A stretch of DNA of 63,234 nucleotides from a virus. The stretch lies in the IMG/VR virus record IMGVR_UViG_3300045988_163731. One strand, given 5' to 3'. The notes beneath the pieces are model-generated. The model was not told the origin of the DNA. It did not search any database and saw only the letters and a program-made list of their open reading frames with translations. The position numbers were made by a program, and so were the translations under genes. Of the stretch, positions 5,281 through 49,158 are shown piece by piece (the stretch's first letter is position 1; each line of letters opens with the position of its first letter).

Positions 5281-5679
5281 ATGTTAGAAGCAAATTCCCA
5301 GACATTAACAGTAACAGCGAATACAGACCTTACATTCGCAAATATCAACATTCAGACTGGTTTAACAGCAGTCTTGGACAGTGACAATGCAACTATCAGA
5401 CTGAATAGACCAGGTATATACCGTGTAGACTTTACCGCCTATGGCAGTAGCACCGCCGCAGGGACAATTGGAGCCCAGCTGTATGCCAATGATACAGCAG
5501 TCAACAGAGCTTCCAGTGTTGCCACCACCGCAGCAGGGGCACCACAGGCAATAGCTTTTTCTACTCTTGTAGCAGTTGGGAGCACCACGGCAGGCAGAAC
5601 CGCAAAGCTGAATGTAAAATACATCGGTGCAGCTGGTATCTTGAACAATGCTGATGTTATCGTGACAAAGATTGCATAA
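5281..5679 (+). CDS. BclA C-terminal-domain-like / C1q-TNF-like jelly-roll protein
   Basis: Pattern TVTANTDLTF...GIYRVDFTAYGSS...LYANDTAV...AKLNVKY resembles exosporium BclA C-terminal domains. Confidence 0.45.
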   Translation: MLEANSQTLTVTANTDLTFANINIQTGLTAVLDSDNATIRLNRPGIYRVDFTAYGSSTAAGTIGAQLYANDTAVNRASSVATTAAGAPQAIAFSTLVAVGSTTAGRTAKLNVKYIGAAGILNNADVIVTKIA

Positions 5680-5690
5680 GGGGTGATAAC

Positions 5691-6122
5691 ATGAAAGCAG
5701 AAATCAAAGAGGCTTGGCAAAGGATTCTTGCTCATCAGCTGGAGGGGATAATGCTACACAGCAAGTTAAGCACTACATATATGCTGCTAGACTGTAAGAA
5801 GCAGTCAAGGACTCATTCAGCCCACTACATTCAAGAGTGCATTGCACATCAGAATACACTTTTGTACATTGTGAGCGAATATGGCGAGGAAGTACAGCCC
5901 GCAAACCTCACAATCGAGCCTGACAAACATATCTGTATGCCTGTTCGACCACTAGAACGCCATGTAAGGCACGAAAAGGCAAGTGCCCTAGTGAATGTAT
6001 GGAAAGAGTGGGAAACCGCAACAGCGAGCTTCTACGAGGAAATGAAAGCTATTATGCCAGATTGCCCACTGATTAACAAACTTTTGAAGTCGGTCAAGTA
6101 TGAATTGGCCCACATACACTAA
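5691..6122 (+). CDS. Hypothetical protein
   Basis: ORF with an RBS (GGGGTGATAAC) before the ATG. Confidence 0.5.
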   Translation: MKAEIKEAWQRILAHQLEGIMLHSKLSTTYMLLDCKKQSRTHSAHYIQECIAHQNTLLYIVSEYGEEVQPANLTIEPDKHICMPVRPLERHVRHEKASALVNVWKEWETATASFYEEMKAIMPDCPLINKLLKSVKYELAHIH

Positions 6123-6156
6123 AAAAACAGCCCCCACCAATCAAGGTAGGGGCTGT
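6121..6156. terminator. Bidirectional terminator between convergent genes
   Basis: CAGCCCC-N14-GGGGCTG hairpin. An A-run lies upstream and a T-rich stretch downstream. Confidence 0.55.
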
Positions 6157-6160
6157 ACAA

Positions 6161-6940
6161 TTATTCTGTGATTAATGTAATATCGCCTACAAGGTCAGCT
6201 GTTTCGCTGTCAGTGCTGACACAATGGAGTATCTGACGAAATTTCTCAATAGCCTTGGCATTGTACCGGAACGACTCAACCTCTTTGTTTGAGTGCTTGG
6301 CCTTGTCGTGATACCAGGAGCCGTATTCTGCTGTTTTCAGCTTGTGAACATTAGCAAGTCTGCCGATTTTATGAGCCGACACATTAAGCATATTGCCAAT
6401 CTCAGTAGCGGTGTAGGTCTTTTCCTCAGCTTTTGGCAGGGTAACAACATCCTTTTCAGCCAAAGTGTTAGCAGCATAGGCCTTGCAAACTTGCTGATAT
6501 GTACCGCTTGAACCCTCTGCCAGCTTTGCCCAGAGTGCTGCTTCACGGACTTTTGCATTGCGTTCCATGATTGCTAACCGCTTGGTCTTGGATTCGTCCA
6601 ATGGCTTTGCGGTGTAGCTCCCAGTCTTGCGGATAGATGGCAGGACTTCATCAAATACCCAGCTCTCAAACTTCTCTGCTGCTGGCAGTTTTGAATGAGT
6701 GATAAGCCTGTACACATCGCCCTCTGGAATAAAGTTTACCTCTAGTGTACCTTTGCCCTGTGGATGAGGTATGCGGTGTTTTACAGTACACCTGCAATGT
6801 GCAGAAACAGCATCTGCTGGCCGTGCATACCCTAGCATTTTAGCAACATCACTTGCGACAAACATAATCTTGCCGTTATTGTCCCAGGTTCTTAGATTGC
6901 CGAAAACATCACTACTAAAAATTTTTAAATTTTTCTGCAT
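6161..6940 (-). CDS. Phage antirepressor, Bro-N domain plus KilA-C-like C-terminal domain
   Basis: N-terminus FSSDVFGNLRTWDNNGKIMFVASDVAKMLGY...FESWVFDEVLPSIRKTG is a canonical Bro-N domain. The C-terminal domain is shared with 39865-40806. Confidence 0.85.
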   Translation of the reverse strand: MQKNLKIFSSDVFGNLRTWDNNGKIMFVASDVAKMLGYARPADAVSAHCRCTVKHRIPHPQGKGTLEVNFIPEGDVYRLITHSKLPAAEKFESWVFDEVLPSIRKTGSYTAKPLDESKTKRLAIMERNAKVREAALWAKLAEGSSGTYQQVCKAYAANTLAEKDVVTLPKAEEKTYTATEIGNMLNVSAHKIGRLANVHKLKTAEYGSWYHDKAKHSNKEVESFRYNAKAIEKFRQILHCVSTDSETADLVGDITLITE

Positions 6941-7058
6941 GATTTAACCTCTTTTCATTGAAAAAAGGCTATACCTTATGATACAATAATTTCAAGAGGC
7001 ATAGCCTCGTGGATGGATTGTAGCATATTGTCTTTTGTTGGGGAACAGGGGCAATATG

Positions 7059-7235
7059 CTACTCGTTTATACTGGTATATACCTGCTGTATTCCCCGAAT
7101 GACGATTTCGGTTTTTGTTGTATTGAAATGTTTTGCACATTCCTCCAACATATCAGCCTCTTTTTTAGTCATTCTGATTCTAGTTTGAACCTCTCTAGGA
7201 CTTCTTGCAGGTGGTTTACCTGTTTTTGCAACCAT
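7059..7235 (-). CDS. Small ribbon-helix-helix-like DNA-binding protein, first gene of the leftward RHH-antirepressor operon
   Basis: AGGAGGTGAAAAAC-ATG on the minus strand supports the start at 7235 (MVAKTGKPPARSPREV...). The longer ORF starting at 7283 has no RBS. Confidence 0.55.
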   Translation of the reverse strand: MVAKTGKPPARSPREVQTRIRMTKKEADMLEECAKHFNTTKTEIVIRGIQQVYTSINE

Positions 7236-7447
7236 GTTTTTCACCTCCTGTTGCGTGGTTACACAAACATTATAAGAAAACATAGGGAAAGTGTCAAGGA
7301 AAATTTTCCCTAAAACTTAAAGATTGTAAAAAACAGAATTATGATTGCGTTTTTCTTAACAATCATTGCGAATTTTCAACAAATAATTTAAAGTTAATTA
7401 ATTGCTAGTTATGCTAGTGTTGGTATTATTGAACAAGGAAATGTGAT

Positions 7448-8668
7448 ATGACATATTTTATTATAGCGGTGTTGGTTGTAGCTTGTATCGTTATGCACAA
7501 CGACAAAGAGAGATGGCGAGAAGGACACCTGAAAAAACAAGATTTAATAAAAAAAGGGGAAGACTGTTATTATCAAGCGGTCGTGGACGCTAGAAAAATA
7601 AAAGATGAAACTAAAAGAGCAAAAGAACAGATATTGTTTTTAGCAAACAGAGAAGCCAATCTGATAAAGGAAGAGAACAAAAAGAAGATTGCAGATATAG
7701 AGGAAGAACGGAATTTGCTCACGGCTGCAAAAACAGCAGCTATAAAAGATTTTCCAGTGCTTGCTACAATAATAGCAGATTATGAAAATGCCAAAGACCT
7801 TGCAATTGAAAATAATCTTAGATATAAAGACAGGCCAGCGGTAAAGGCTGCTGATGAAGTCAAGAAGATTAGAGGAGAAAAAAGAATACTCATTGTAGAA
7901 AATCACGCATATAAATGGGAGCTGCTGCATTTAAAAAAGCTTTTGCCGTGGCTTGAAGATATTGAGGAAGAAGCGATAACACCAGTCCACGACTATATAA
8001 ATGCAAACTTTGCAGAAAATGATTCTGCTGGATTCTGGCTAACACCTGATGAGTATATGAGATTGCGGAGTACAGAAAAATATCAGCTTGCCCTTAAGAG
8101 ATACTGCACCCGGCATAAATCAAACCAGGAAATAGGCACCGAGTATGAGCGTTTTATAGGCTATATGTACGAAACTAAGGGATATAAGGTTGAGTTTGTA
8201 GGCATAGAAAAAGGCTTAGAGGATTTAGGAAGAGATTTGATTTGTACCAATGACAAAGAAGTTCTCATAGTGCAATGTAAATGCTGGTCGAATAAGAAGA
8301 ACAAAGTTATTCGTGAGAAATACATCAACCAATTATGCGGTACGGCTTTAATGTACAAAATAAAGCATCCAGAATGTAAAAAAACTATAAAGCCTGTGTT
8401 TGTTTCAACAGTGCCATATAGCGATATGGCAAAAGAATTTGCCAAATGCCTAAACATACAATGTATTGTTCAGCCCTTAGAGAAGTACCCAATGGTAAAA
8501 TGTAACATAAATCTCTCGACTAATGAGAAAATATACCATTTGCCATTTGACCAGCAATATGACAAATGCGTTATAAATAAAAAGCTGGGTGAATGTTATG
8601 TAATGACGGTACAAGAGGCAGAAAATAAAGGTTTTAGACGTGCCAGGCGTTGGCTCGGACATAATTAA
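7448..8668 (+). CDS. Membrane-anchored protein with a coiled-coil and an Mrr-cat-like (PD-(D/E)xK) restriction-endonuclease domain
   Basis: N-terminal TM span FIIAVLVVACIVM. The block FIGYMYETKGYKVEFVG...DLGRDLICTNDKEVLIVQCKCWS matches the Mrr catalytic motif (G.D.G.DL...VQCK). Confidence 0.65.
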   Translation: MTYFIIAVLVVACIVMHNDKERWREGHLKKQDLIKKGEDCYYQAVVDARKIKDETKRAKEQILFLANREANLIKEENKKKIADIEEERNLLTAAKTAAIKDFPVLATIIADYENAKDLAIENNLRYKDRPAVKAADEVKKIRGEKRILIVENHAYKWELLHLKKLLPWLEDIEEEAITPVHDYINANFAENDSAGFWLTPDEYMRLRSTEKYQLALKRYCTRHKSNQEIGTEYERFIGYMYETKGYKVEFVGIEKGLEDLGRDLICTNDKEVLIVQCKCWSNKKNKVIREKYINQLCGTALMYKIKHPECKKTIKPVFVSTVPYSDMAKEFAKCLNIQCIVQPLEKYPMVKCNINLSTNEKIYHLPFDQQYDKCVINKKLGECYVMTVQEAENKGFRRARRWLGHN

Positions 8669-8678
8669 CCGCACAATA

Positions 8679-8716
8679 AAACCCCTCTCTATTCCAGAGA
8701 GGGGTTGTTTTTATTT
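8679..8716. terminator. Bidirectional terminator between the convergent Mrr-like and DUF262 genes
   Basis: AACCCCTCTCT-ATTCC-AGAGAGGGGTT, with T-runs on both strands. Confidence 0.6.
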
Positions 8717-8735
8717 TGAAGCCCCCAAAAAAATG

Positions 8736-9455
8736 TTAATTTTGTTGTCTCTTCCCTTTTGCGTTTAAGATTTCAAAAATCATATTAGCTTGTTCTTTAT
8801 CTGTTGTAGATATTGACACGAATATTGTTTGAAGAACTTGATCTCTTATTGCTTTTAATATTTCTACATACTGCGACGAATATACATCTTCCCTACCACA
8901 CCATTTTGTCAAATATTTCCTAATATTTTTTTCTTCTAATTGTTCATAAAAAAACTTATACGCTTCTTCCATACGGCATTCTTCCTCACCCACCGCTTCT
9001 TGAAGATAATTCTTCTCTCTATCTTGTATATAATACGAAAAGAACGGATAATGTGATTGACTTTTTAGAATACGCACAGGCTCTCCATTATCATCTTCAG
9101 TCATTATATATCTAAACAGCTGCTTACTAAGTTTTTCTTCACCAAGCTGGCGAAATCTATCCGAAAGAGCAGAAAAAAGTATTGTAATTGTAGTCAATCG
9201 TTGTTGCCCATCAACTACTTGTATCTCCTTATCAGTCCCTTCGGCATAGTCACCTATAAATAACATAGTTCCCAAGAAATATTGACTATTAACGACCTTT
9301 CCATCCTTTATAGATAAACAACTCAACATATCTTCCAAAAACTCTTTATAATTCTTCTTATCCCATGAATATTCCCTTTGAAACCTCGGAATCAGAAATT
9401 GCCTACCTGAAACTAATACTTCTCTAATCGTCGTATCATATAGTTTTATATTCAT
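8736..9455 (-). CDS. DUF262 (ParB/Srx-like, GmrSD N-terminal type) domain protein. It lacks the DUF1524/HNH half and may be 3'-truncated.
   Basis: IPRFQREYSW...YFLGTMLF...VVDGQQRLTTITILF is the DUF262 signature. The ORF stops at ILNAKGKRQQN, inside the conserved LN.RG..L..DLIKN block as I recall it. Confidence 0.65.
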   Translation of the reverse strand: MNIKLYDTTIREVLVSGRQFLIPRFQREYSWDKKNYKEFLEDMLSCLSIKDGKVVNSQYFLGTMLFIGDYAEGTDKEIQVVDGQQRLTTITILFSALSDRFRQLGEEKLSKQLFRYIMTEDDNGEPVRILKSQSHYPFFSYYIQDREKNYLQEAVGEEECRMEEAYKFFYEQLEEKNIRKYLTKWCGREDVYSSQYVEILKAIRDQVLQTIFVSISTTDKEQANMIFEILNAKGKRQQN

Positions 9456-9526
9456 TTTTTAGTACCTCCACATTTTATTACATCATATCACAATGGGGTG
9501 GCAAATCACCACCCCTATTGCAACCA

Positions 9527-10015
9527 TCACTTCAACCTATATGAAAGTTTTTCAAACTTGCTGGAATAAGCCTCTATACATTCACATGATAAACTACCCA
9601 CGATATTGTTTATCTCTGTAATTTTCTGATTGAGATATTCAATTACACCCTCCACTGACTTCAATTCATATTCCAGGCGAAAAATCGTTTTGTGTCTACT
9701 CTCGACACGCTCGTCAATGTTAGCAATGATTTTTTCAGCATTGATTCTCTTGCCGTCCAACATATCTGACAGCCTTATAGAAAAAATTGTTGCGGCAGAG
9801 TCGTTGTATATTCCATCACGACGGCGGATTGTAATCCAATCACTGTAATTGGATTTATCTTCATAGCAGCCAATATCGGCAAAAGCCTTGCCAAACCTGC
9901 AATTATAGCACTTGCCGTCAAAGGCCTTTACGATAGCCTTTACAGGCTCGACCATATCCAGGGACTTTTTATACTCACGGATACGGACTTGTAATTTTTC
10001 TTGTTCTTTTGTCAT
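9527..10015 (-). CDS. Hypothetical protein
   Basis: ORF in the leftward early operon. Confidence 0.5.
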   Translation of the reverse strand: MTKEQEKLQVRIREYKKSLDMVEPVKAIVKAFDGKCYNCRFGKAFADIGCYEDKSNYSDWITIRRRDGIYNDSAATIFSIRLSDMLDGKRINAEKIIANIDERVESRHKTIFRLEYELKSVEGVIEYLNQKITEINNIVGSLSCECIEAYSSKFEKLSYRLK

Positions 10016-10099
10016 GGTGTAAAACCTCCTTTGATTTAGGCTGATAGCCTTTATCAGTCCTACCAGATGGCGGGTATCTGGTAGGCTAGATAAAATCTA

Positions 10100-10603
10100 T
10101 CATGCGGTTAATGCTTTACGGCCTTTGGAGGTGAAAACCTCACTTCCATGCAAATTTCTAATCTGGTCCATGTCAAGGGTTTTTCTAGTAGTCTTGACAT
10201 AATCGGCAGGCCTCCAATACCACAGCTTCTTTTTAGAAGCCCAGCGGCAGCCAACTTCCTTGATTGCGGTTTTGTTCTGGAAAGTGTTACCACTTATCCA
10301 GATCCAATCGCCGCAAACCTCCAATTCCAGCCCGTCCAGCTTCATTAACTTGTCAAGGGCTGTTCTGAACTCGTCAGACTGGAAGTCATAGCAGGTATTG
10401 GCTTTAGCTCCTCCCTGCTTGCCTCCCTTGCGGTTGCCGTCCTCGTCGAATAGGTGAGCCAAAGCCCATTCATACTCTAGGACAATTGCAACCATAACTT
10501 CATGGTCACCGCCTTTGTCTGGGTGGTTTTTAAGTACCAGCTTGTGGTAAGCCTTTTTTAATTCCTTTACATTCTGAACATCTTTGAAATACTGTAATTT
10601 CAT
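10100..10603 (-). CDS. J-domain (DnaJ-like) protein
   Basis: KELKKAYHKLVLKNHPDKGGDHE carries the HPD motif. RBS GGAGGG precedes the ATG. Confidence 0.85.
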   Translation of the reverse strand: MKLQYFKDVQNVKELKKAYHKLVLKNHPDKGGDHEVMVAIVLEYEWALAHLFDEDGNRKGGKQGGAKANTCYDFQSDEFRTALDKLMKLDGLELEVCGDWIWISGNTFQNKTAIKEVGCRWASKKKLWYWRPADYVKTTRKTLDMDQIRNLHGSEVFTSKGRKALTA

Positions 10604-10639
10604 TTTTAAACCCTCCTAAATCAATTTTGTTTATTTGTC

Positions 10640-10723
10640 CTTAACCTGCACACAGTACCAGGATAATGAAATACACGCTAACCGCTACAAATATGTAGTC
10701 TATAATCTTTTTTACTGTTTTCA
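10640..10723 (-). CDS. Possible 27-aa hydrophobic micro-protein (MKTVKKIIDYIFVAVSVYFIILVLCAG)
   Basis: GAGGAGGTGAAAGC-ATG on the minus strand. Sits between two operon genes. Confidence 0.3.
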
Positions 10724-10918
10724 TGCTTTCACCTCCTCAAGTACAGTGTCAAGCAATTGTTCCGGTGTTAAATTATTAGCCTGGCAGTAAGTTATTATTT
10801 GCCCTACCAGACGTTCAGCGTATGCTTTTTGTGTGAGCTCGTCTCTTGCTGTAGCTACTTGCATAGCTTTAGTGATAATGTCAGTGGCCACTACTCTTTT
10901 GAAATAATCTTTAGTCAT
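10721..10918 (-). CDS. Hypothetical protein, first gene of the leftward early operon
   Basis: ORF with an RBS (GGAGG) before the ATG. Confidence 0.5.
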   Translation of the reverse strand: MTKDYFKRVVATDIITKAMQVATARDELTQKAYAERLVGQIITYCQANNLTPEQLLDTVLEEVKA

Positions 10919-10970
10919 TTTGAAAACCTCCTAAATAAAATTGCTGTTTCAATAAGCAATAACGCTTATT

Positions 10971-11007
10971 TTGATTACATAGTAGCACGGTATTTTTGAC
11001 TTGTCAA
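10971..11007 (-). promoter_or_regulatory. Leftward sigma-A-type promoter (TTGACA-17-TACTAT) with an embedded TTGAC-TT-GTCAA palindrome. Copy 1 of a 37-bp repeat.
   Basis: Exact 37-mer TTGATTACATAGTAGCACGGTATTTTTGACTTGTCAA, present again at 12037-12073. Confidence 0.55.
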
Positions 11008-11041
11008 GCATTTTTTATTATAAAATAAGTTTTTTTGCTTA

Positions 11042-11070
11042 TTGAGTAAGTAGAAAATTTTTGATATAAT
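11042..11070 (+). promoter_or_regulatory. Rightward promoter TTGAGT-17-TATAAT for the small HTH regulator gene
   Basis: Read directly in the sequence: -35 at 11042-11047, -10 at 11065-11070. Confidence 0.45.
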
Positions 11071-11089
11071 TTGTATGGAGGTGTTGAAA

Positions 11090-11293
11090 ATGGATAAAAA
11101 AGAGTTTAAAAAAATGTGGCAGAAATTTTTGATAGACTCAGAAAATACTAATGCTGCCATTGCAGAGGTGGAGGGCTGCACGCCACAAACTCTAGGCAGA
11201 AAAATAAATGACGGTACTATACGACTTTTAGAAGCAGCAAGTATCTTTGAAAAATACGGCTACCGCCTGGAGTTAGTGAAAGATGAGAAGTAG
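11090..11293 (+). CDS. Small HTH DNA-binding regulator
   Basis: RBS GGAGGTG before the ATG at 11090. The helix-turn-helix is AAIAEVEGCTPQTLGRKIN. Confidence 0.55.
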   Translation: MDKKEFKKMWQKFLIDSENTNAAIAEVEGCTPQTLGRKINDGTIRLLEAASIFEKYGYRLELVKDEK

Positions 11294-11328
11294 CACCAGA
11301 ACCGGTACAATAAAAAAGGCATAAGAAA

Positions 11329-11356
11329 AGACCTGCCAAACGGCAGGCCTTTTTGA
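11329..11356. terminator. Bidirectional terminator
   Basis: CCTGCC-AAAC-GGCAGG, with an A-run before and a T-run after. Confidence 0.45.
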
Positions 11357-11366
11357 TTGTATCTTT

Positions 11367-11705
11367 TTATTCGATGTCAAGCACCCATAGAAAATTTGCT
11401 TTTGTGCAAAGTGCTTCCCCGTCCTCGTCGTAGTCTGGGAGTTCGTCTGCACATGGACCGGTACAAATCATTTTGCCGTTTTCTTCCTGGGGGCCGCATA
11501 GCTCACCTACATAATGAGATACAGTCCCAATTATATAATCCTCTATGCTAGAGGTATCCGGGCCGTCATAGTGTCCTTCTTTGATACTCTCTAAAGCGTT
11601 TTCATAATCTTCTTTTAGCTCTTTACGGCAAGCCTCTTTGCTTTCCTCGTCCAAAGCCTCCCAAACCTGCCACCAAAAGCCGAATACTTCTACTTTCTTA
11701 TCCAT
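11367..11705 (-). CDS. Acidic hypothetical protein
   Basis: ORF. Second gene of the short leftward operon driven by the 12037-12073 promoter copy. Confidence 0.5.
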   Translation of the reverse strand: MDKKVEVFGFWWQVWEALDEESKEACRKELKEDYENALESIKEGHYDGPDTSSIEDYIIGTVSHYVGELCGPQEENGKMICTGPCADELPDYDEDGEALCTKANFLWVLDIE

Positions 11706-11949
11706 GATAACTCATCCTTTCCGTCTCCTCCTCAATATCTGTAGCACCTACAGACTTGATAAAGTCTGACATTTCGTCAGACCATGTCTCACCCTCGACC
11801 GTTTCGGCCTTTATAATGGCCGGGTTATCGAAGTAAGGCCCGGCCCAACCTCCGGGATATGCTTTTGCCCAGTCATAGACTAGGGTTGTGGTATGGTAAT
11901 TGTTGCCGTACCACTCTGTACGGCATTCAAATTCAAATCTTTTTTCCAT
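11698..11949 (-). CDS. Hypothetical protein
   Basis: ORF. Its 8-nt overlap with the downstream gene suggests coupling. Confidence 0.5.
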   Translation of the reverse strand: MEKRFEFECRTEWYGNNYHTTTLVYDWAKAYPGGWAGPYFDNPAIIKAETVEGETWSDEMSDFIKSVGATDIEEETERMSYHG

Positions 11950-12036
11950 TTTATACCATCCTTTCTGCCTCCCAGATGGAGGCCTACAAGCCTATAAAAT
12001 AAACTTTAAAGCTGATTTATAAGCTATATTGTTTAT

Positions 12037-14042: not shown

Positions 14043-14262
14043 GCTGCTGTTGTGCGCCAGTGACCTAACATTTTTTAAGGCGGGTAACACCGCCTTTTTA
14101 TATGTCTGCTATGAGGTAATGGCCTTATAGTAGGCTGAGTTTTTCATAATCCTCCTTTTCTTTTATTAGCGGTGTGTCTTTATGGCATACCGCCTTTTTT
14201 ATGGGCGATTCCAGAGTGTGTTGGTGCAACTCCAACTAGCCCTATTATTACGAGGTGAGCAC

Positions 14263-16743
14263 ATGAGTAATCCACAAAGTGAATTAGTAGAGTTCTTGGC
14301 ACAATTTACCCACGACCCATTAGGATTTGTGTATTCCTGCTTTCCTTGGGGTAAGGATGAATTGGCGAATTACAAAGGTCCCGATGCCTGGCAGATTGAG
14401 ATACTTGAAAAGCTAGGTAAAGGCCTCATAAATATTGAAGAAGCAATAAGGCTGGCTGTGGCATCAGGTCATGGGATTGGAAAGGCCAGTACAGATGTTC
14501 TGATTATTGATACGCCTAATGGCAAGCAAAGATGGGGCGATTTAAAAGTAGGTGACTATGTATTTGGGGCTGATGGCAAGCCAGTAAAAATAATTGGCAC
14601 TAGAAAATATAAAGCCATACCTTTCTACAGGGTAACGTTTGATGATGATAGCTATTGCGAGGTTTCCAGCGGCCACTTGTGGAACGTAAAGAACCGCAAT
14701 GACAGGAGAACTGGTAAAGGCTGGCGAACTCTTTCCACTTTGGAAATAGTTGAGGCTGGGGTGCTTCGCAAATCAGGTTACAAGCCTAATGGTGAACAAC
14801 ATTGGGCAAAACAATGGGAGATACCAATACAGGGTGCAGCAGAATTTCCACACAAGGAAACTTTGCTACACCCTTATTTATTAGGGGTATGGTTAGGAGA
14901 TGGCAGCAGAGAACAGCCTACCTACACAAAGCCGTATCCAGAAATTAGGAATAAACTAAAAGCCCTTGGATATAGTGTTAAGCTCTGTAAAGATGACAAA
15001 CGAAACTACATAAAAGGCATAAAACATTTGCTTGTAGATAAGGTGTTTTCCTGCCGTAGCTTTAATCGTTATATCCCTGACGAATACAAATACAACGATG
15101 TTGCTAGTCGTAAAGAGCTGCTATGCGGCTTGCTTGATACTGATGGAGAGATAAACAAAAAAAGTTCTATTCTCTATTCCACCACCAGCAAGCAGTTAGC
15201 AGAAGATGTCCTGTGGTTGGTTCGTTCATTAGGTGGTAAAGCCCAATTGCAGCCAACTGACAAGCAGGGCTGGTACTATGACGACAACCGCAATAGGGTA
15301 AATTGTAGGTTTTGTTATCGCATAACAATGACTTTGCCATTTAACCCTTTCTCAATAAAACATCGCAAGGAAAGGTACAAGCCTAATATTGAGGATAGAT
15401 ACCGCAAGAGGTTCATTGCTTCTATTGAGCCAATAGGCAATGCCGATGGAATGTGCATTACAGTCGATAAGCCTGATGGTTTGTATCTGACTAACGACTT
15501 CATAGTGACTCATAATTCCTGCTTGGTTTCATGGATAGTTCTATGGGCTGTATCTACGCATGAGGATACTAGAGGCATTGTTACAGCCAATACAGAGACA
15601 CAGCTAAGGTCTAAGACTTGGCCAGAGGTGTCTAAGTGGTATCGTATGTTTATAGGCCGTGAGCTGTTTGAGATAACAGCTACAGCCATCTTTTCTGCTG
15701 ATAAAGAGCATGAAAAGACTTGGCGGATAGACGCTATCCCTTGGAGCAAGGAAAACCCCGAGGCATTTGCTGGACTTCATAACCAGGGCAAAAGGATACT
15801 TGTTATCTTCGACGAGGCTTCCGCCATTATCGACGATATATGGGAAGTTACCGAGGGTGCTATGACTGACGCCCACACTGAAATAATCTGGTGTGCTTTC
15901 GGGAATCCTACCCGTAATACTGGCAGGTTCTATGAGTGCTTCCATAGTAAGCACCGCACATGGGATACAAAACAGATTGATTCCAGAACGGTAGCCATTT
16001 CTAACAAAAAGGTACTTAACCAATGGGTAGCGGAATATGGCGAGGATTCTGACTTCGTAAAGGTCAGAGTACGCGGATTGTTCCCAGATGCAGCTGCCAA
16101 TCAGCTGATACCTAGAGGTGTGGTGCAGGAAGCTAGGGAAAGACGACCTGAGAAGAAGCAGTACTCCTTTTCTCCAGTAATCATCGGTGTGGACCCTGCA
16201 TGGACAGGGCAGGATATGTTGGCTATTGTAATGAGGCAGGGGATATATTCTCATGTTTTAAAAACTCTCACAAAGAACGACAATGACCTTGCTGTAGCCA
16301 GAATGATAGCAGGTTTCCAAGACCAATACGGAGCTAGTGCTGTGTTCATAGATATGGGCTATGGTACAGGTATTTACTCTGCCGGCAAGGATATGGGGCG
16401 TGATAATTGGCGTATTGTTCAGTTTGGTGGTAAATCAGACAAAGAAGAATACGTCAACAAGCGTGCTGAAATGTGGTTCGCTATGAAAGAGTGGTTGGTT
16501 AATGGTGGCTGCATTGATAATGAAGCATTAGCTGACGAGCTGGTAGCTCCAGAGGCTTTTGTTAATCGCTATGGTAAACACCAGTTGGAAAGTAAAGACG
16601 ATATGAAGCGCCGTGGCGTACAATCCCCGAATATGGCGGATGCCTTGGCATTGACCTTTGCTTTCCCTGTGCAGAGCGGTTGGAGTCATAAATATAAGAA
16701 ATATAGAAAAGCTGGCAAGATAGCCAAATGGGGTGCACTGTAG
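14263..16743 (+). CDS. terL: Terminase large subunit, interrupted by an in-frame intein in the Walker-A loop
   Basis: RBS GAGGTGAG before the ATG at 14263. Walker-A ASGHGIGK is split from SCLVSWIVLW by about 344 aa. The downstream nuclease region is typical of terL. Confidence 0.9.
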   Translation: MSNPQSELVEFLAQFTHDPLGFVYSCFPWGKDELANYKGPDAWQIEILEKLGKGLINIEEAIRLAVASGHGIGKASTDVLIIDTPNGKQRWGDLKVGDYVFGADGKPVKIIGTRKYKAIPFYRVTFDDDSYCEVSSGHLWNVKNRNDRRTGKGWRTLSTLEIVEAGVLRKSGYKPNGEQHWAKQWEIPIQGAAEFPHKETLLHPYLLGVWLGDGSREQPTYTKPYPEIRNKLKALGYSVKLCKDDKRNYIKGIKHLLVDKVFSCRSFNRYIPDEYKYNDVASRKELLCGLLDTDGEINKKSSILYSTTSKQLAEDVLWLVRSLGGKAQLQPTDKQGWYYDDNRNRVNCRFCYRITMTLPFNPFSIKHRKERYKPNIEDRYRKRFIASIEPIGNADGMCITVDKPDGLYLTNDFIVTHNSCLVSWIVLWAVSTHEDTRGIVTANTETQLRSKTWPEVSKWYRMFIGRELFEITATAIFSADKEHEKTWRIDAIPWSKENPEAFAGLHNQGKRILVIFDEASAIIDDIWEVTEGAMTDAHTEIIWCAFGNPTRNTGRFYECFHSKHRTWDTKQIDSRTVAISNKKVLNQWVAEYGEDSDFVKVRVRGLFPDAAANQLIPRGVVQEARERRPEKKQYSFSPVIIGVDPAWTGQDMLAIVMRQGIYSHVLKTLTKNDNDLAVARMIAGFQDQYGASAVFIDMGYGTGIYSAGKDMGRDNWRIVQFGGKSDKEEYVNKRAEMWFAMKEWLVNGGCIDNEALADELVAPEAFVNRYGKHQLESKDDMKRRGVQSPNMADALALTFAFPVQSGWSHKYKKYRKAGKIAKWGAL
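14485..15516 (+). mobile_element. LAGLIDADG homing-endonuclease intein inside terL (N-terminal boundary approximate)
   Basis: Ends with ...IVTHN followed by S(+1). Two LAGLIDADG motifs: LLGVWLGDGS and LLCGLLDTDGE. Block-A-like STDVLIIDTPNG at the start. Confidence 0.8.
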
Positions 16744-39864: not shown

Positions 39865-40806
39865 ATGACAAATATTTTAAACCATGATAATGTAAAACCT
39901 GTAGTAGCTGTAGCCACTGAATACATTGTTGATTACCATCAGGCTGATAGAGCTGTATTGAATCAATTAGTTACCAGCAGTCAGATAGTAGCGTTTTATT
40001 TCAATAAACAGCACAAGCATGTACTTCGAGCAATAGACAATATCATTGCTGAATTTTCAGCGATGACCTCAGAAAACATCAAAGCCCAAAATTGGGCTTT
40101 GACCTCTATGTTCTATACAGCTTCGTACAAGACAGGCACAGGCAAACGCTATCCAATGTACTTTATGAACAGGGATGGATTCTCTCTGCTGGCAATGGGC
40201 TTCACCGGGAAGAAAGCCTTGGAATGGAAGATACGGTATATCCAGGCTTTCAATGAAATGGAAAGGAAGCTGAAAGAACAGGGTATGCTCAAAAATGAGC
40301 ATACCCCTAAACATTCCTCGGCTAACAGCAAGGCTCCCGATGTCGCTCCACCAGAGGTACTGGCACAGGCCAGAGCCAAGACCATGTTAATGAACGCAAG
40401 GACTAGACAGGCAAAGCTATGGAAAACATTAGCTGACGAATCCACAGGAACCTACAGGGAGATTTGCAAAGTGTATGCTGCCAATATCCTAGCAGGGAAA
40501 GAAGTATTGCCACTACCCAAGCCACCCCAAAAGACAATGACTGCAACGGAGCTGGGAGAGGCAACTGGGCTGACTGCAATGAATGTAGGCCTGCTGGCTA
40601 ATAAGTACAATCTAAAAACTGCCGCCTTTGGCCAGTGGGTGTACGATACATTGAAAAATGGCAGGCAGGTAGAATCGTTCAGATACTATGAGTCTGCCAT
40701 ACCGGTAATCAAGGAAATAGCAGAGGCAGAGAGAAAGAATAAAAAGCTGGTAATTAAGACGCCCCTAGCGGAGCTTTTAGGGGATATTATCATATTCACT
40801 AAATGA
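39865..40806 (+). CDS. Phage regulatory protein Rha (N-terminal) with an antirepressor C-terminal domain
   Basis: KRYPMYFMNRDGFSLLAMGFTGKKALEWKIRYIQAFNEME is the Rha signature. The C-terminal half aligns with the C-terminus of 6161-6940. Confidence 0.85.
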   Translation: MTNILNHDNVKPVVAVATEYIVDYHQADRAVLNQLVTSSQIVAFYFNKQHKHVLRAIDNIIAEFSAMTSENIKAQNWALTSMFYTASYKTGTGKRYPMYFMNRDGFSLLAMGFTGKKALEWKIRYIQAFNEMERKLKEQGMLKNEHTPKHSSANSKAPDVAPPEVLAQARAKTMLMNARTRQAKLWKTLADESTGTYREICKVYAANILAGKEVLPLPKPPQKTMTATELGEATGLTAMNVGLLANKYNLKTAAFGQWVYDTLKNGRQVESFRYYESAIPVIKEIAEAERKNKKLVIKTPLAELLGDIIIFTK

Positions 40807-41055: not shown

Positions 41056-41367
41056 TTATTGTCCAAACATTTTCTTTGACATTAATTCAAACTGCTGGAG
41101 AATAGGCTTCCATTGCTCCATGTGGGAATCTATCAGGCCTTTCATGAATTGGTTTACGGATACATTGTTAATCTTTGCCAGCTGCTTTATGGCTTCGATT
41201 TGTTCCTCTGGGACAATAAGGTGAAGATGTTTTAACTCTACATCTGGGTTGTCAGGTTTCCTGCCTCTTTTCTTTGGCTCCTCCAGCTTGGGTTTTGTGA
41301 TTATATCCTTGGCAGCCTCTTTGTAAACATCAAAAGGGCTAGCAACTTTACTAAAATCTTTCGCCAT
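41056..41367 (-). CDS. ParG-like RHH partition/centromere-binding protein
   Basis: C-terminal RHH HLIVPEEQIEAIKQLAKINNVSVNQFMKGLI. Start codon overlaps the parA stop. RBS GGAGGTAG. Confidence 0.65.
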   Translation of the reverse strand: MAKDFSKVASPFDVYKEAAKDIITKPKLEEPKKRGRKPDNPDVELKHLHLIVPEEQIEAIKQLAKINNVSVNQFMKGLIDSHMEQWKPILQQFELMSKKMFGQ

Positions 41368-42167
41368 TATTCTACCTCCGTTTCAGGCTCTTGATAGTTG
41401 AAGATTTCTTGTATCAAACTCAGGTAGTCTTTAGCAGCATTGCTGTTTTTATCGTAAGAGAAAATATCCTTAACACTGGCTTGGGCTTCCTTAATGGCTA
41501 CATTTTCTCTGATACCTGTTTCAAAAACTTTTGTTTTCATTTTCGTGGCAGCACTCTTAAAGAGTTTGTTCATATCCTGTGCAATGCGGGTGCGCTCATT
41601 GTAGCGTGTCATTATTATGCCCGCTATCCTCAACCTGGAGTTGCAGTATTCCCTGACTGACTCAACGGTAGCATACAGCTGACTCACACCTTGCAGACTC
41701 AGAATGTCGGCCTGTGCAGGAATGATTACCCTGTCTGCTGCGGTCAGCGCATTTGCTGTCAGAGTCCCCAGGGCAGGTGGGGTGTCTATTATGATGAAGT
41801 CATACTCCTTGGCTTTACTGCTACCTTTAATGGCCTCCTGTAGCTTATATGACCTGCTTATAGGGTCTGTCAGTCTGCCATCAATGGAAGCAAGAAACAT
41901 GGAGGCAGGAACAATGTCATACTTCTCTAACTGCTGGATTCCCTCAAACAGCCTTGCCTCACCAACAAGGCACTCCAATATGGTAACGACATCAGCATTC
42001 TGAGTGTCAGTTACAGCGCCACATACTTGTGATAGATTACTCTGTGGGTCCAGGTCTAAAAGAAGAACCCTCTTTCCGTAATAGTCCCAAAGCCCAGCGG
42101 CCAGATTTTGAGCGGTGGTGGATTTTCCTACTCCTCCCTTTTGGTTAGCGATGGCGAAAACCTGCAT
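41367..42167 (-). CDS. parA: ParA/Soj-type partition ATPase
   Basis: Deviant Walker A NQKGGVGKSTT, plus LLLDLDPQ. Confidence 0.9.
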   Translation of the reverse strand: MQVFAIANQKGGVGKSTTAQNLAAGLWDYYGKRVLLLDLDPQSNLSQVCGAVTDTQNADVVTILECLVGEARLFEGIQQLEKYDIVPASMFLASIDGRLTDPISRSYKLQEAIKGSSKAKEYDFIIIDTPPALGTLTANALTAADRVIIPAQADILSLQGVSQLYATVESVREYCNSRLRIAGIIMTRYNERTRIAQDMNKLFKSAATKMKTKVFETGIRENVAIKEAQASVKDIFSYDKNSNAAKDYLSLIQEIFNYQEPETEVE

Positions 42168-42242
42168 GATAATACCCCTTTCAAAAAATTTTTTAAAAAT
42201 TTCTCCAAAACATTTATACAGAAAATACTTTCCAAACTGAAC

Positions 42243-42260
42243 ATAACTAGCATAACTAGC
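42243..42260. repeat. Tandem ATAACTAGC x2 (TAGCA-core sites) about 75 bp upstream of parA. Candidate partition operator/centromere site.
   Basis: Reverse complement GCTAGTTATGCTAGT recurs at 7405-7419. Core spacing is 9 bp. Confidence 0.5.
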
Positions 42261-42689
42261 AGCTTGGGAATGTTGGTATTTATGAATATTCTATACTATT
42301 ATTACATGAATAGCAACAAAAAACTCATGCTAGTTATGAATTAATTGTTCAATAATAGCATGAGTAACAATAATAGCAATAGTAGCAGTTTTTATTATTT
42401 CTATTCCTTGAATAAGTTGTTGTGTTGACAAGTTTCCAGAGATGTAGTATTATGTCTGTAAAAGTTCTTTGAAAATAAAAAAGAGCAGGTCTTGTATGAG
42501 ATGCCAATCTCATACAAGCCTTAGAGTACGATTGCACCATAATCATACACCAAGTTTTCCTGCATATCTTTATGTAGGAATTATAACATAAAAGGTCAGC
42601 GTTGGTCAATCGTACCAGCGCTTTTTTAGTGGAACAATTTAAATAAATTTCAAATAATAAAGTATAAACCAAAAAGATTAATAAGTAAG

Positions 42690-45732: not shown

Positions 45733-45954
45733 TGCTATTATTGCTATTTCTGATTATCAAGAACATGAAAATCAATGTTAGCATAACTATCATAATTATC
45801 AAGATTATAGAATATAATTTATTTATCATTTATATCATGACTAGCATTGTTAACATGATTAGCATGAATATCAATGTTATCAATAATAGCATAAAATATA
45901 ATAATGAAAATAAGAACATAATTACCGATATTAGCATGATTAGCAAGTTTAGCA
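45733..45954. repeat. Iteron-like array of at least 10 TAGCA (and TGCTA) core sites, all in a 9-bp register. Candidate centromere (parS) or origin.
   Basis: TGCTA cores at 45733 and 45742. TAGCA cores at 45779, 45842, 45860, 45887, 45932, 45941 and 45950. Every inter-site distance is a multiple of 9. Confidence 0.7.
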
Positions 45955-47672: not shown

Positions 47673-48542
47673 ATGTCAACTGATGCAAGTATTATTGGCG
47701 TTGAAAAAGGCCAATACAATGTACCGACAAAAGAAGCTGGTAAATATGTAACTGTTCACTGGGAAACAGAGGTAGGCCAGCTTACAGACCTCACAGGTAT
47801 TTCTCATAACGGCATCTACCGGGGTAAAGACCTGACTAACTATTATGCCAGCGGGGAAATGTCCAAGGCTATCGCAAATGGCAGCTTTAAGGATATCTAT
47901 ATCGGTGACTATATCACCAAGAATATCGTTGTTGGCGGTACTACCTATCAGGTTAAGTGGGAAGTTGCTGATATAGATTACTTCTATAAGTCCGGTGATG
48001 CTTCTTGTGATACTCACCATGTAGTCCTGCTTCCATCAAAGGCTGTGTTTGTTAATATTAAGATGAATGATACCGACACCACTAAAGGCGGCTATGCAGG
48101 CAGCAAAATGTGGAAAGAAACCATTCCTGCTGTTGTTACCGGTATCAAGGCCGCGTTTGGTGCAGACCATGTGGTAAAGCATAGAGAATTGCTGACTATC
48201 AAAGTTTCTGCCACTGCTCAGTCTGTTGCTGGAGCTGGTTGGACTGGCAGTAGTACAGGACAGGCTTGGGCTGATGTAGAAGCTAACATTCCGACTGAGC
48301 CTATGGTTTATGGCGGTACTGTATTTGGTTCTAGTGGATATGATGTTGGAAGTGGCGGGAAACAGTTTGCTATCTTCAGATTCAAGAAGGACTGTTATCC
48401 TGATAGAATGTGGTTTTGGCTTAGAGCGGTGGCTTCGGCGTCTAGGTTCTGCCGCGTCAGCGCTAGTGGCTTTGCGAGCTCCCACGATGCTTCTATTTCG
48501 AACTCCTCTGGCGGCTGTCGCCCGTATTTCCTGTTCCGCTAA
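47673..48542 (+). CDS. DGR target protein (putative receptor-binding protein) with a C-terminal variable region
   Basis: Its 3' 100 bp is the VR. RBS AAGGAATG before the ATG. The C-terminus RAVASASRFCRVSASGFASSHDASISNSSGGCRPY corresponds to TR-encoded IAVASASRFCNVSENGNANYNDASNSNSSGGCRP. Confidence 0.8.
   Translation: MSTDASIIGVEKGQYNVPTKEAGKYVTVHWETEVGQLTDLTGISHNGIYRGKDLTNYYASGEMSKAIANGSFKDIYIGDYITKNIVVGGTTYQVKWEVADIDYFYKSGDASCDTHHVVLLPSKAVFVNIKMNDTDTTKGGYAGSKMWKETIPAVVTGIKAAFGADHVVKHRELLTIKVSATAQSVAGAGWTGSSTGQAWADVEANIPTEPMVYGGTVFGSSGYDVGSGGKQFAIFRFKKDCYPDRMWFWLRAVASASRFCRVSASGFASSHDASISNSSGGCRPYFLFR
48425..48524 (+). repeat. DGR variable repeat (VR)
   Basis: 100 bp, 88% identical to 49059-49158. 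All 12 mismatches lie opposite TR adenines. A GC hairpin GTCGCCCC-CTTC-GTGGGGCGAC follows 24 bp downstream. Confidence 0.85.
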
Positions 48543-48596
48543 CCTTGTCGTCGCCCCCTTCGTGGGGCGACATAATCGCCATTTTTAGGAGGTAAA

Positions 48597-49037: not shown

Positions 49038-49058
49038 TTCTATAGGGTATCAGCTAAT

Positions 49059-49158
49059 AGCGGTGGCTTCGGCGTCTAGGTTCTGCAACGTCAGCGAAAA
49101 TGGCAATGCGAACTACAACGATGCTTCTAATTCGAACTCCTCTGGCGGCTGTCGCCCG
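49059..49158 (+). repeat. DGR template repeat (TR)
   Basis: Intergenic copy of the VR. Its AAC codons read as Asn in the VR frame. Confidence 0.85.

What the first reader, a model, noticed from the sequence alone, without database searches (positions are those of the whole stretch)
7448..9455. Convergent pair: membrane-anchored Mrr-like PD-(D/E)xK nuclease and a truncated-looking DUF262 protein
The 406-aa protein has one N-terminal TM helix, about 150 aa of coiled-coil and an Mrr-cat restriction-endonuclease core (DLGRDLIC...VQCKCW), an unusual architecture. Directly opposite, sharing a bidirectional terminator, is a standalone DUF262 (GmrSD N-terminal type) gene with no DUF1524/HNH partner. 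That gene appears to end inside a conserved motif. The locus lies among antirepressor and early genes, a typical spot for defence or superinfection-exclusion cargo. The Mrr-like gene carries its own upstream TAGCA tandem site.
Basis: partly seen in the sequence, partly recalled or inferred. Interest (0 to 1): 0.7.

Follow-up and report, generated by a model that had tools for sequence, protein, structure and literature searches.

The report
Membrane-tethered prophage nuclease beside broken GmrSD gene
Two unrelated cargo genes sit tail to tail in a variable spot of a gut temperate phage: an intact member of a large, uncharacterised family of membrane-anchored restriction-type nucleases that prophages usually keep next to their repressor and integrase (probably to block other phages), and the first 40% of a bacterial type IV restriction gene that is most likely a leftover.

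Summary
ORF 7448-8668 (+, 406 aa) is an N-terminal membrane anchor, a roughly 80-residue helical stalk, a conserved helical domain, an Mrr_cat PD-(D/E)xK core with invariant E234/D263/Q276-x-K278, and a C-terminal sunset domain. ORF 8736-9455 (-, 239 aa) is a DUF262/GmrSD_N gene. The two share hairpin 8680-8706.

The DUF262 ORF is truncated. Its relatives are 578-597 aa GmrSD_N+GmrSD_C proteins. Homology to them (79% aa to an Acetatifactor gene, 95% nt to a metagenomic gene next to DpnII) stops at codon 236, inside the NAKGKRLxxxDLIKN motif.

The genes are not a system. A sister phage keeps the nuclease and terminator but has TnpB instead of DUF262. In the Pfam family counts for genes flanking 80 other viral loci, GmrSD_N is not among the families listed.

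Those loci place the nuclease family after cI/ImmR/ImmA-type repressors and before integrases. I read it as a lysogeny-expressed single-protein defence or exclusion nuclease. That function is inferred, not tested. The family is absent from PADLOC, from PDB by sequence, and from cultured phages.

The DUF262 piece is most likely a remnant. An anti-restriction decoy role is not excluded.

The parts
7448..8668 (+). Mrr-like membrane-tethered nuclease gene (406 aa). Domains: N-terminal anchor (residues 2-16), helical stalk (17-98), conserved helical domain (about 99-185), Mrr_cat PD-(D/E)xK core (about 226-341; E234, D263, Q276, K278), sunset domain (about 350-400).
7402..7429 (+). Promoter-like site TTGCTA-16-TATTAT with an extended TG, in front of the nuclease gene.
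   Evidence: Consensus scan only.
7404..7430 (+). Units of 9-bp period, GCTAGTTAT GCTAGTGTT (GGTATTATT), overlapping the promoter.
   Evidence: The exact 15-mer occurs a second time, upstream of parA at 42246-42260 (-). The degenerate pattern gives 4 hits against 0.07 expected. Sister phage L002 carries one extra unit.
8680..8706 (.). Bidirectional intrinsic-terminator-like hairpin shared by the two convergent genes. It belongs to the nuclease cassette.
   Evidence: It is conserved with the nuclease gene in L004, where the DUF262 gene is absent.
8715..8746 (.). Junction filler. It lies between the end of homology with sister phage L004 (8714) and the end of homology with bacterial GmrSD genes (8747). 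It supplies the last three codons (QQN) and the TAA stop of the DUF262 ORF.
   Evidence: blastn and alignments.
8736..9455 (-). Truncated GmrSD-family gene (239 aa). Residues 1-236 correspond to the DUF262/GmrSD_N domain minus its last roughly 12 profile positions. The central region and the DUF1524/GmrSD_C nuclease are missing.
   Evidence: Pfam GmrSD_N E=1.1e-31, profile positions 4-187 of 199. PADLOC models of 530-790 positions match only their first roughly 220. 79% identity over residues 1-236 of the 584-aa Acetatifactor protein, which has GmrSD_N at 13-248 and GmrSD_C at 449-570. 95.2% nt identity to L256, which continues in frame past the breakpoint.
7059..7283 (-). 74-aa ribbon-helix-helix-type repressor gene, first gene of the divergent repressor-antirepressor operon. 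Given as context, not as part of either cargo gene.
   Evidence: phrog_876 'transcriptional repressor' E=1.3e-12. A perfect TTGACA-17-TATAAT promoter at 7297-7269 overlaps the palindrome GGAAAATTTTCC.
6161..6940 (-). Antirepressor gene (Bro-N, Ant family). Context only.
   Evidence: Pfam Bro-N E=9.5e-20. PHROG anti-repressor Ant E=4e-44.

Best explanation
The locus holds two independent cargo genes in a hypervariable accessory slot of a temperate phage. The phage is probably a phage-plasmid, because it has ParA and no integrase was found among the ORFs tested.

(1) Gene 7448-8668 encodes an intact, probably active PD-(D/E)xK nuclease of the Mrr type.
- A short N-terminal anchor, oriented N-out/C-in by the positive-inside rule, fixes it to the cytoplasmic face of the membrane.
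- A long helical stalk holds the nuclease and a small sunset domain below the membrane. At 1.5 Å per residue, about 80 helical residues span about 12 nm. The sunset domain is probably nucleic-acid-binding.
- The family is a typical lysogeny-module gene: repressor, then nuclease, then integrase.
- I infer that it is made in the lysogen and acts as a single-protein superinfection-exclusion or defence nuclease. It would cut incoming foreign DNA near its point of entry.
- The resident genome would be spared by spatial confinement, by dependence on DNA modification as in Mrr, or both.
- Shown: the domain anatomy, the conserved catalytic residues and the genomic placement. Inferred: expression in the lysogen, the target, and how self-DNA is spared.

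(2) Gene 8736-9455 is the first 236 codons of a roughly 584-codon GmrSD-type type IV restriction gene of the Lachnospiraceae kind that sits next to DpnII systems.
- It was cut inside the last DUF262 motif when neighbouring DNA was exchanged.
- It lacks the His-Me/HNH (DUF1524) nuclease, so it cannot restrict DNA.
- It is most likely a recent, slowly decaying remnant of former defence cargo.
For: Nuclease gene:
- E234, D263, Q276 and K278 are invariant in 45 homologues of 42-93% identity.
- The N-terminal anchor is conserved in 44 of 45, with positive charges only after it.
- The sunset domain is matched by 26 of 26 C-terminal segments, and the same domain is appended to ribosomal proteins L17, L4 and L20.

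Placement of the nuclease family:
- In L015/L016 the order is cI-like (HTH_3 + Peptidase_S24), then the nuclease, then integrase, all on one strand.
- In 80 IMG/VR loci the upstream neighbour is on the same strand in 59 of 78.
- Of 66 distinct upstream neighbours, 29 have HTH_3, 13 Peptidase_S24 and 12 Peptidase_M78 (ImmA).
- Among the next two downstream genes there are 14 tyrosine integrases and 6 large serine recombinases, plus Abi_2 four times and RelA_SpoT twice.
- In 61 viral contigs of at least 20 kb the gene lies within 5 kb of a contig end in 37, against about 28% expected. That end is on the gene's 3' side in 49.
- It is a solitary gene without a methyltransferase on Hymenobacter plasmids.
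- A validated analogue exists: Epona, Mrr_cat fused to two transmembrane helices (10.1101/2024.07.02.601686).

Independence of the two genes.

Truncation of the DUF262 gene:
-.
- G+C is 32.6% for the DUF262 piece and 36.7% for the nuclease gene, against 41.7% for the window.

Remnant reading:
- Changes polarised onto the phage branch since the 95%-identical bacterial gene are 7-8 nonsynonymous to 7 synonymous. They include near-invariant P5 and I162. The ratio between bacterial full-length genes is 7 to 28 (Fisher p=0.04-0.08).
- No promoter-like site was found directly upstream of the ORF.
- 24 of 25 relatives in viral contigs are full length, so a stump is not a recurrent phage design.
Against: - No experiment or expression data. 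The defence role of the nuclease rests on genomic placement and domain logic alone.
- In this window the nuclease gene is not next to a cI-type repressor or an integrase. It faces an Arc/Ant-like operon, so expression in the lysogen is inferred by analogy and from the operator it shares with parA.
- The family has no PADLOC model.
- The DUF262 ORF is intact. It has a strong Shine-Dalgarno sequence (GGAGGT, 8 nt before the ATG) and keeps the DGQQR NTPase motif.
- Its phage-branch substitutions are also fewer nonsynonymous than strict neutrality predicts (binomial p of about 0.01-0.02). Continued function of the stump therefore cannot be excluded.
- The three phage copies are identical in nucleotide sequence, so they say nothing about selection.
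Confidence: 0.55

Rival explanations
1. The DUF262 stump is a working anti-restriction decoy. The N-terminal NTPase and dimerisation domain is 95% identical in DNA to a bacterial GmrSD gene. It would be expressed by the phage to form dead heterodimers with the host's GmrSD-type type IV enzyme, or to compete for its DNA or NTP, and so protect phage DNA.
For: - The ORF is intact with a consensus Shine-Dalgarno sequence at good spacing, and the DGQQR and FQREYSW motifs are kept.
- It is very close to a bacterial gene that lies in a DpnII + GmrSD island.
- Phage-branch changes are fewer nonsynonymous than neutrality predicts.
- The GmrSD relative BrxU works through a dimer-monomer cycle (PMC10952713).
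- Phages are known to inhibit GmrSD with dedicated proteins (background knowledge: T4 IPI*; see also PMC11322646, listed).
Against: - The cut falls inside the last conserved DUF262 motif, not at a domain boundary.
- No own promoter was detected.
- Substitutions hit near-invariant positions.
- 24 of 25 relatives in viral contigs are full length.
- The sister phage does without it.
- A literature search for phage-encoded dominant-negative truncated defence homologues found nothing.
Confidence: 0.12
2. The two genes form a split two-component restriction system. The DUF262 protein would be a GmrS-like NTPase and sensor, working in trans with the Mrr-like nuclease in place of DUF1524.
For: - The genes are adjacent.
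- The original GmrS/GmrD system is two proteins, and DUF262 occurs without DUF1524 beside other nucleases in Menshen, Dazbog and PD-T4-2 (PMC10952713).
Against: - The genes are convergent and belong to different exchange modules, with breakpoints at 8714 and 8747.
- The nuclease occurs without DUF262 in L004/L005, in L011-L014, in the Hymenobacter plasmid examined, and GmrSD_N is not among the Pfam families listed for the genes flanking 80 IMG/VR loci.
- The DUF262 piece is a cut fragment of a fused GmrSD gene, not a GmrS-type gene with its own end.
Confidence: 0.04
3. The Mrr-like protein serves the phage's own cycle or maintenance rather than defence. Possible roles are degrading host DNA, processing or resolving replicating DNA at the membrane, or acting as a killing function that stabilises the plasmid-prophage.
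For: - In this window the gene sits near early and regulatory genes.
- It shares an exact 16-bp operator-like repeat with the parA promoter region, which ties it to plasmid maintenance.
- Many family members are unannotated.
Against: - The preferred position is between the lysogeny repressor and the integrase, on their strand, not in replication or lysis modules.
- It is present on non-phage plasmids as a solitary gene.
- No conserved partner that could act as an antitoxin was seen.
- It is dispensable in related phages.
Confidence: 0.15

Closest known systems
Mrr / type IV modification-dependent restriction endonucleases (Pfam Mrr_cat, PF04471)
   Same: The catalytic core and motif (E...D...QxK). 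It is a solitary gene without a cognate methyltransferase. The fold matches AF1548, MspJI and AspBHI.
   Different: It has no Mrr_N winged-helix DNA-binding domain. Instead it has a membrane anchor, a helical stalk, a family-specific helical domain and a C-terminal sunset domain. It is not recognised by the PADLOC mREase_IV model. Dependence on DNA modification is untested.
Epona (Vibrio integron cassette defence; Mrr_cat fused to a holin-like domain with two transmembrane helices; bioRxiv 10.1101/2024.07.02.601686)
   Same: A single protein that joins a membrane segment to an Mrr_cat nuclease, is carried on a mobile element and has validated anti-phage activity. It is the nearest functional precedent.
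   Different: Epona has two transmembrane helices of holin type. No stalk, helical domain or sunset domain is described for it.
GmrSD / BrxU / SspE family (DUF262 + DUF1524 type IV restriction and related enzymes)
   Same: The 239-aa ORF is 79% identical to the N-terminal 236 residues of a 584-aa GmrSD_N+GmrSD_C protein. It keeps the (I/V)DGQQR motif. PADLOC HEC-06, Orf5 and SspE models match it.
   Different: It lacks the end of DUF262, the central region and the whole DUF1524 His-Me nuclease, so it cannot be a working member.
Prophage lysogeny-module exclusion genes (lambda rexAB next to cI, P22 sieA/sieB near immI) - named from background knowledge
   Same: Genomic logic: an accessory gene beside repressor, antirepressor and integrase, expressed with the immunity functions, variable between related phages.
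   Different: No sequence or fold relationship. Rex and Sie are not nucleases.
RNase Y (N-terminal membrane anchor + coiled coil + catalytic domains)
   Same: The overall design of a nuclease hung from the membrane on a helical N-terminal region. One family member weakly hits RNase_Y_N.
   Different: RNase Y has KH and HD domains and is a housekeeping RNA-decay enzyme. There is no homology in the catalytic part.

Membership tests
Mrr_cat PD-(D/E)xK restriction endonuclease superfamily | Profile match above the curated threshold | tested here: met
   PF04471: 37.3 bits against a cut-off of 21, E=3.3e-9, residues 230-334.
Mrr_cat PD-(D/E)xK restriction endonuclease superfamily | Catalytic E / D / (E/Q)xK residues present and conserved | tested here: met
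   E234, D263, Q276 and K278 are invariant in 45 homologues.
Mrr_cat PD-(D/E)xK restriction endonuclease superfamily | Restriction-endonuclease alpha/beta fold | tested here: met
Type IV (modification-dependent) restriction enzyme of the Mrr type | N-terminal Mrr_N winged-helix DNA-binding domain | tested here: not met
   No such Pfam hit. The N-terminal 225 residues are anchor, stalk and helical domain.
Type IV (modification-dependent) restriction enzyme of the Mrr type | Cleaves only modified DNA | not testable with these tools
   Needs biochemistry or plating assays.
Known anti-phage defence systems (PADLOC-DB v2) | Match to a defence-system protein model | tested here: not met
   The only hit is a coiled-coil artefact to HamB (E=3.6e-4, residues 29-119).
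Prophage lysogeny-module accessory gene (moron) | Recurrent position beside repressor and integrase, on the same strand, variable between related phages | tested here: met
   for the family. for variability at this site. In this window the neighbour is an Arc/Ant-like operon, not cI-int.
Sunset domain (NCBIfam NF051437) | Profile match | tested here: inconclusive
   The window's own C-terminal segment scores 24.5 bits (E=2e-5), below the curated 27. All 26 family segments match at E<=0.1, best E=3.8e-8.
GmrSD family type IV restriction enzyme | DUF262/GmrSD_N domain with the DGQQR motif | tested here: met
   PF03235 E=1.1e-31. VVDGQQRLTT is present.
GmrSD family type IV restriction enzyme | Complete DUF262, including the terminal N..G..L...DL.K motif | tested here: not met
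   The ORF ends KGKR|QQN*. Profile positions 188-199 are missing.
GmrSD family type IV restriction enzyme | DUF1524/GmrSD_C His-Me nuclease, fused or encoded by an adjacent gene | tested here: not met
   It is absent from the ORF. Downstream lie only 67 bp, the terminator and then the convergent nuclease gene. Full-length relatives have it at residues 449-570.
DUF262-only defence components (Menshen, Dazbog, PD-T4-2) | Best match to those systems' models and a conserved partner gene | tested here: not met
   The top PADLOC hits are the fused types HEC-06, Orf5 and SspE. The nearest relatives are fused 584-aa genes.

The most novel reading that the evidence does not exclude
The 406-aa protein is the founding example of a widespread, so far undescribed single-protein prophage and plasmid immunity family: membrane anchor, stalk, Mrr-type nuclease and sunset domain. 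Such a protein would destroy incoming DNA at the inner face of the membrane, so self/non-self discrimination would come from location rather than from sequence or methylation. In addition, the neighbouring stump of the host-type GmrSD gene may be kept as a dominant-negative inhibitor of that host enzyme. One phage slot would then carry both a defence and a counter-defence.
Probability: 0.1. Interest if true: 0.8.

Novelty: new variant of a known kind. Interest (0 to 1): 0.45.

Why it matters
If the nuclease family protects lysogens, it adds a very common defence gene to the catalogue. It has thousands of homologues in Bacillota (including Negativicutes such as Selenomonas) and Bacteroidota, and it currently escapes PADLOC. 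It would also give a simple test case for immunity by spatial confinement of a nuclease. The slot itself shows how defence cargo turns over: an intact cassette lies beside the stump of a previous one, and the stump is 95% identical to a bacterial gene from a DpnII + GmrSD island. That dates the exchange as recent and points to a Lachnospiraceae (Acetatifactor-like) gene pool. The truncated DUF262 gene on its own is an ordinary remnant.

Tried and rejected
- Megablast of 5500-12000 against 50,697 phage records gave no match. tblastn of the nuclease against the same records also gave none.
- A PDB sequence search with the family profile gave only coiled-coil noise. The same search with the sunset-domain profile gave nothing meaningful.
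- Rfam on 6900-10700 gave one sub-threshold hit (caiA, 24.5 bits against 55.5), which I rejected.
- The repeat search of the locus gave only short two-copy matches, apart from the terminator and an inverted repeat at 10042-10102.
- The AFDB50 fold library was unavailable.
- The many homologues of odd length (235-414 aa) returned by the first protein search looked like a natural family of short DUF262 proteins. I rejected that reading. The cases I inspected end at contig ends or carry frameshifts, such as a GmrSD_C ORF overlapping in another frame in L010 and a 1-nt loss in a GGGAAAA run in L067. Genome-derived loci are 578-597 aa.
- dN/dS against distant bacterial homologues is saturated at synonymous sites and uninformative. 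The three phage copies are identical, so they are also uninformative.
- I asked whether the conserved helical domain is a module shared with other effectors. It is not. 76 of 119 further hits carry Mrr_cat, 18 of them also a SWIM zinc finger, and there is no alternative nuclease.
- A literature search for 'sunset domain' found nothing relevant. A search for dominant-negative truncated defence homologues found nothing.
Full report
**Observation.** The two ORFs exist exactly as described: 7448-8668 (+, 406 aa) and 8736-9455 (-, 239 aa). The 67-bp spacer holds a G+C-rich hairpin of 11-12 pairs (8680-8706) with T-runs on both strands, so it looks like a terminator in both directions. Pfam assigns Mrr_cat to residues 230-334 of the first protein (E=3.3e-9). 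It assigns GmrSD_N (DUF262) to residues 13-236 of the second (E=1.1e-31). The DUF262 match stops at profile position 187 of 199.

**DUF262 ORF: it is a truncated GmrSD gene.** PADLOC models of fused GmrSD-like proteins (HEC-06, Orf5, SspE, mREase_IV; 530-790 positions) match only with their first 200-240 positions. A scan of one genome per species found 553 relatives. In 35 of the 43 best loci I measured, the reading frame runs 578-597 aa. The closest is an Acetatifactor MAG (Lachnospiraceae). Its protein is 584 aa, with GmrSD_N at 13-248 and GmrSD_C (DUF1524) at 449-570. It is 79% identical to the phage protein over residues 1-236, without a gap. In IMG/VR, 24 of 25 relatives are also roughly 530-690 aa.

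**DUF262 ORF: where the cut lies.** At DNA level, homology to bacterial genes ends at window position 8747-8749. The phage reads ...ILNAKGKR-QQN-stop. All relatives continue ...ILNAKGKRLxxxDLIKNKIFE.

**DUF262 ORF: the closest relative.** The most telling relative is a 1,173-bp metagenomic contig (L256). It is 95.2% identical in nucleotides to window 9460-8747. It lies downstream of a DpnII-family gene, as in the Acetatifactor MAG, and it continues in frame beyond the phage breakpoint. The fragment is therefore a recent derivative of a Lachnospiraceae-type GmrSD gene.

**DUF262 ORF: a misleading lead.** The first protein search returned many relatives of 235-414 aa, which suggested a natural class of short DUF262 proteins. 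On inspection this was wrong. The cases I checked stop at contig ends. Others are frameshifted genes whose DUF1524 part follows in another frame (L010), or carry a 1-nt loss in a GGGAAAA run (L067).

**Are the two genes a pair? No.** A sister phage (L004/L005) has a nuclease 93% identical in protein and DNA 94% identical from 6952 to 8714. It diverges immediately after the terminator and carries a 71-aa ORF and a TnpB instead. Similarity resumes only near 10598. A further relative (L203) has the flanking 162-aa gene and the antirepressor, but between them sit four unrelated genes, three of which look secreted or membrane-bound from their sequence. A more distant group (L011-L014) has antirepressor, a small ORF, the nuclease and then a giant 3,280-aa protein.

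The interval between the 162-aa gene and the antirepressor is thus a cargo hotspot. The nuclease with its terminator is one cassette. The block 8715-10597 (DUF262 stump, 162-aa gene, J-domain gene) is another. The 32 bases 8715-8746 between the two homology limits are filler of unknown origin, and they supply the QQN-stop. Both cargo genes are A+T-rich relative to the phage: 32.6% and 36.7% G+C against 41.7%.

**Nuclease: anatomy.** AlphaFold2 with 45 homologues gives a confident model (mean pLDDT 85):
- one continuous helix over residues 2-98;
- helices 104-126 and 132-165;
- an alpha/beta core at 226-341;
- a small beta-rich domain at 350-393.

The first 15-20 residues are strongly hydrophobic in 44 of 45 homologues. 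They have no K/R before them and 2-5 K/R after them. By the positive-inside rule the bulk of the protein is cytoplasmic.

The segment after the anchor varies in length and sequence and is a plain stalk. Residues of about 99-185 form a conserved helical domain. That domain occurs only in this family: 160 representative hits, of which 76 of 119 new ones carry Mrr_cat and 18 also a SWIM zinc finger, with no alternative effector.

The C-terminal 50 residues (YPMIKCNIN..GEKIYHLPFDQQYD...GE.YA.TV.EAE..GFRRA.RW) are the most conserved part. They match the NCBIfam sunset domain in all 26 segments tested. The same domain occurs as an appendage of ribosomal proteins L17, L4 and L20, which suggests nucleic-acid binding.

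**Nuclease: where the family lives.** The family has at least 4,329 homologues in metagenomes, a figure capped by the search. These include named 'restriction endonuclease' proteins of Selenomonas and Phascolarctobacterium and 40%-identical solitary genes on Hymenobacter plasmids. It has no PADLOC model, no PDB sequence relative and no hit in deposited phage genomes.

In one prophage the order is cI-like repressor, nuclease, integrase, all on one strand and facing away from the cro-like early genes. The survey of 80 IMG/VR loci gives:
- the upstream neighbour is co-oriented in 59 of 78;
- of 66 distinct upstream neighbours, 29 carry HTH_3, 13 Peptidase_S24 and 12 the ImmA-type Peptidase_M78;
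- among the next two downstream genes there are 14 tyrosine integrases and 6 large serine recombinases, plus Abi_2 and RelA/SpoT-type genes;
- in 61 contigs of at least 20 kb the gene lies within 5 kb of a contig end in 37, against about 28% expected, and that end is on the gene's 3' side in 49.

This is the classical address of genes that a prophage expresses to exclude other phages.

**Nuclease: this window.** Here the gene faces a P22 immI-like unit. A perfect sigma-70 promoter (7297-7269) overlaps the palindrome GGAAAATTTTCC and drives a 74-aa ribbon-helix-helix repressor and a Bro-N antirepressor. The nuclease's own promoter is overlapped by repeats of 9-bp period (GCTAGTnnT). The exact 16-mer recurs between the parA promoter and the parA start, next to four more units. 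A sister phage has an extra unit. This suggests co-regulation with the partition module of a plasmid-prophage. That link is an inference.

**Mechanism I commit to.** The nuclease is a lysogeny-expressed, membrane-tethered single-protein exclusion or defence enzyme. It cuts foreign DNA close to where that DNA enters the cell. The resident DNA escapes because the enzyme is confined to the membrane, because it needs a DNA modification, or both. Shown: fold, catalytic residues, anchor, genomic address. Inferred: timing of expression, substrate, self-tolerance. The nearest validated precedent is Epona, an Mrr_cat nuclease fused to two transmembrane helices (10.1101/2024.07.02.601686).

**DUF262 stump: remnant or tool?** I polarised the 32 nucleotide differences from L256 with three outgroups. 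That puts 7-8 nonsynonymous and 7 synonymous changes on the phage branch. They include near-invariant P5 and I162. The ratio between bacterial full-length genes is 7 to 28 (Fisher p=0.04-0.08). The nonsynonymous share is still lower than strict neutrality predicts (p of about 0.01-0.02).

The pattern fits a gene that was constrained until recently and is now relaxed. With so few changes it cannot exclude a weaker constraint on a working stump. No promoter-like site precedes the ORF, but it has a good Shine-Dalgarno sequence and could be read through from the upstream genes. I rate 'remnant' most likely. I keep 'dominant-negative decoy of the host GmrSD' as the minority reading. The 'split GmrS-like partner of the nuclease' reading is nearly excluded.

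**Verdict.** The truncated DUF262 gene is ordinary. The nuclease belongs to a large, coherent, uncharacterised family whose anatomy and address make it a good candidate for a new variant of single-protein prophage defence. Interest is moderate (0.45), because nothing about its function has been tested.

Noticed in passing
window 47673-50490: A diversity-generating retroelement. The reverse transcriptase is at 49297-50490 (RVT_1 E=1.4e-11). A 113-nt template repeat lies at about 49046-49158 and a variable repeat at about 48412-48524, at the 3' end of ORF 47673-48542 (289 aa, no Pfam hit). Every mismatch in the repeat core lies at an adenine of the copy nearest the reverse transcriptase.
   Followed up: partly
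window 41056-42385 (-), also 45734-45748 and 45930-45944: A partition module: ParA (41367-42167, AAA_31 E=1e-49) plus a 103-aa protein that I read by eye as ribbon-helix-helix-like (no Pfam hit). It is flanked by arrays of 9-bp GCTAnTnAT repeats on both sides of the parA promoter. No integrase was found among the 10 ORFs tested, so this is probably a phage-plasmid. The same repeat sits in the nuclease promoter.
   Followed up: partly
window 7269-7309: A perfect consensus promoter, TTGACA-17-TATAAT, on the minus strand. It overlaps the 12-bp palindrome GGAAAATTTTCC and drives a 74-aa repressor-like gene and a Bro-N antirepressor. The layout resembles P22 arc-ant.
   Followed up: partly
window 6161-6940, 39865-40806, 53486-54292: Three antirepressor-type genes of different families in one genome: Bro-N, Phage_pRha, and ORF6N+KilAC. 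There is also a double-HTH repressor-like gene at 52371-53051.
   Followed up: no
window 10100-10603 (-) and 9527-10015 (-): A J-domain (DnaJ, HPD motif) protein of 167 aa that belongs to phrog_15863 and has 51 relatives in IMG/VR, and a 162-aa coiled-coil protein of unknown function. Both travel in the same exchange block as the DUF262 stump. A 27-nt-arm inverted repeat lies between them at 10042-10102.
   Followed up: no
L004 7276-8689 and 9910-11815: The sister phage carries two TnpB-type genes (OrfB_IS605/Cas12f-like). One is paired with a serine recombinase, as in IS607. A weak Cas2-like ORF is also present. All sit in the same cargo region.
   Followed up: no
window 14182-16743; L002/L003 gene tables: The gene just after the small terminase gene (826 aa in the sister phages, 853 aa here) has weak Hom_end/LAGLIDADG_3 hits. 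That suggests an intein or homing-endonuclease insertion. I take it to be the large terminase from its position only.
   Followed up: no
L006, L007, L008, L009: In the metagenome assemblies I inspected, contigs break inside this GmrSD gene about 290-370 codons in, just past the conserved 5' domain. This suggests strain-level variation in the 3' half that confuses assemblers.
   Followed up: partly
L015/L016 5001-6824 (P0023, 607 aa): Some family members carry the conserved helical domain twice, and 18 of 119 further relatives add a SWIM zinc finger.
   Followed up: partly
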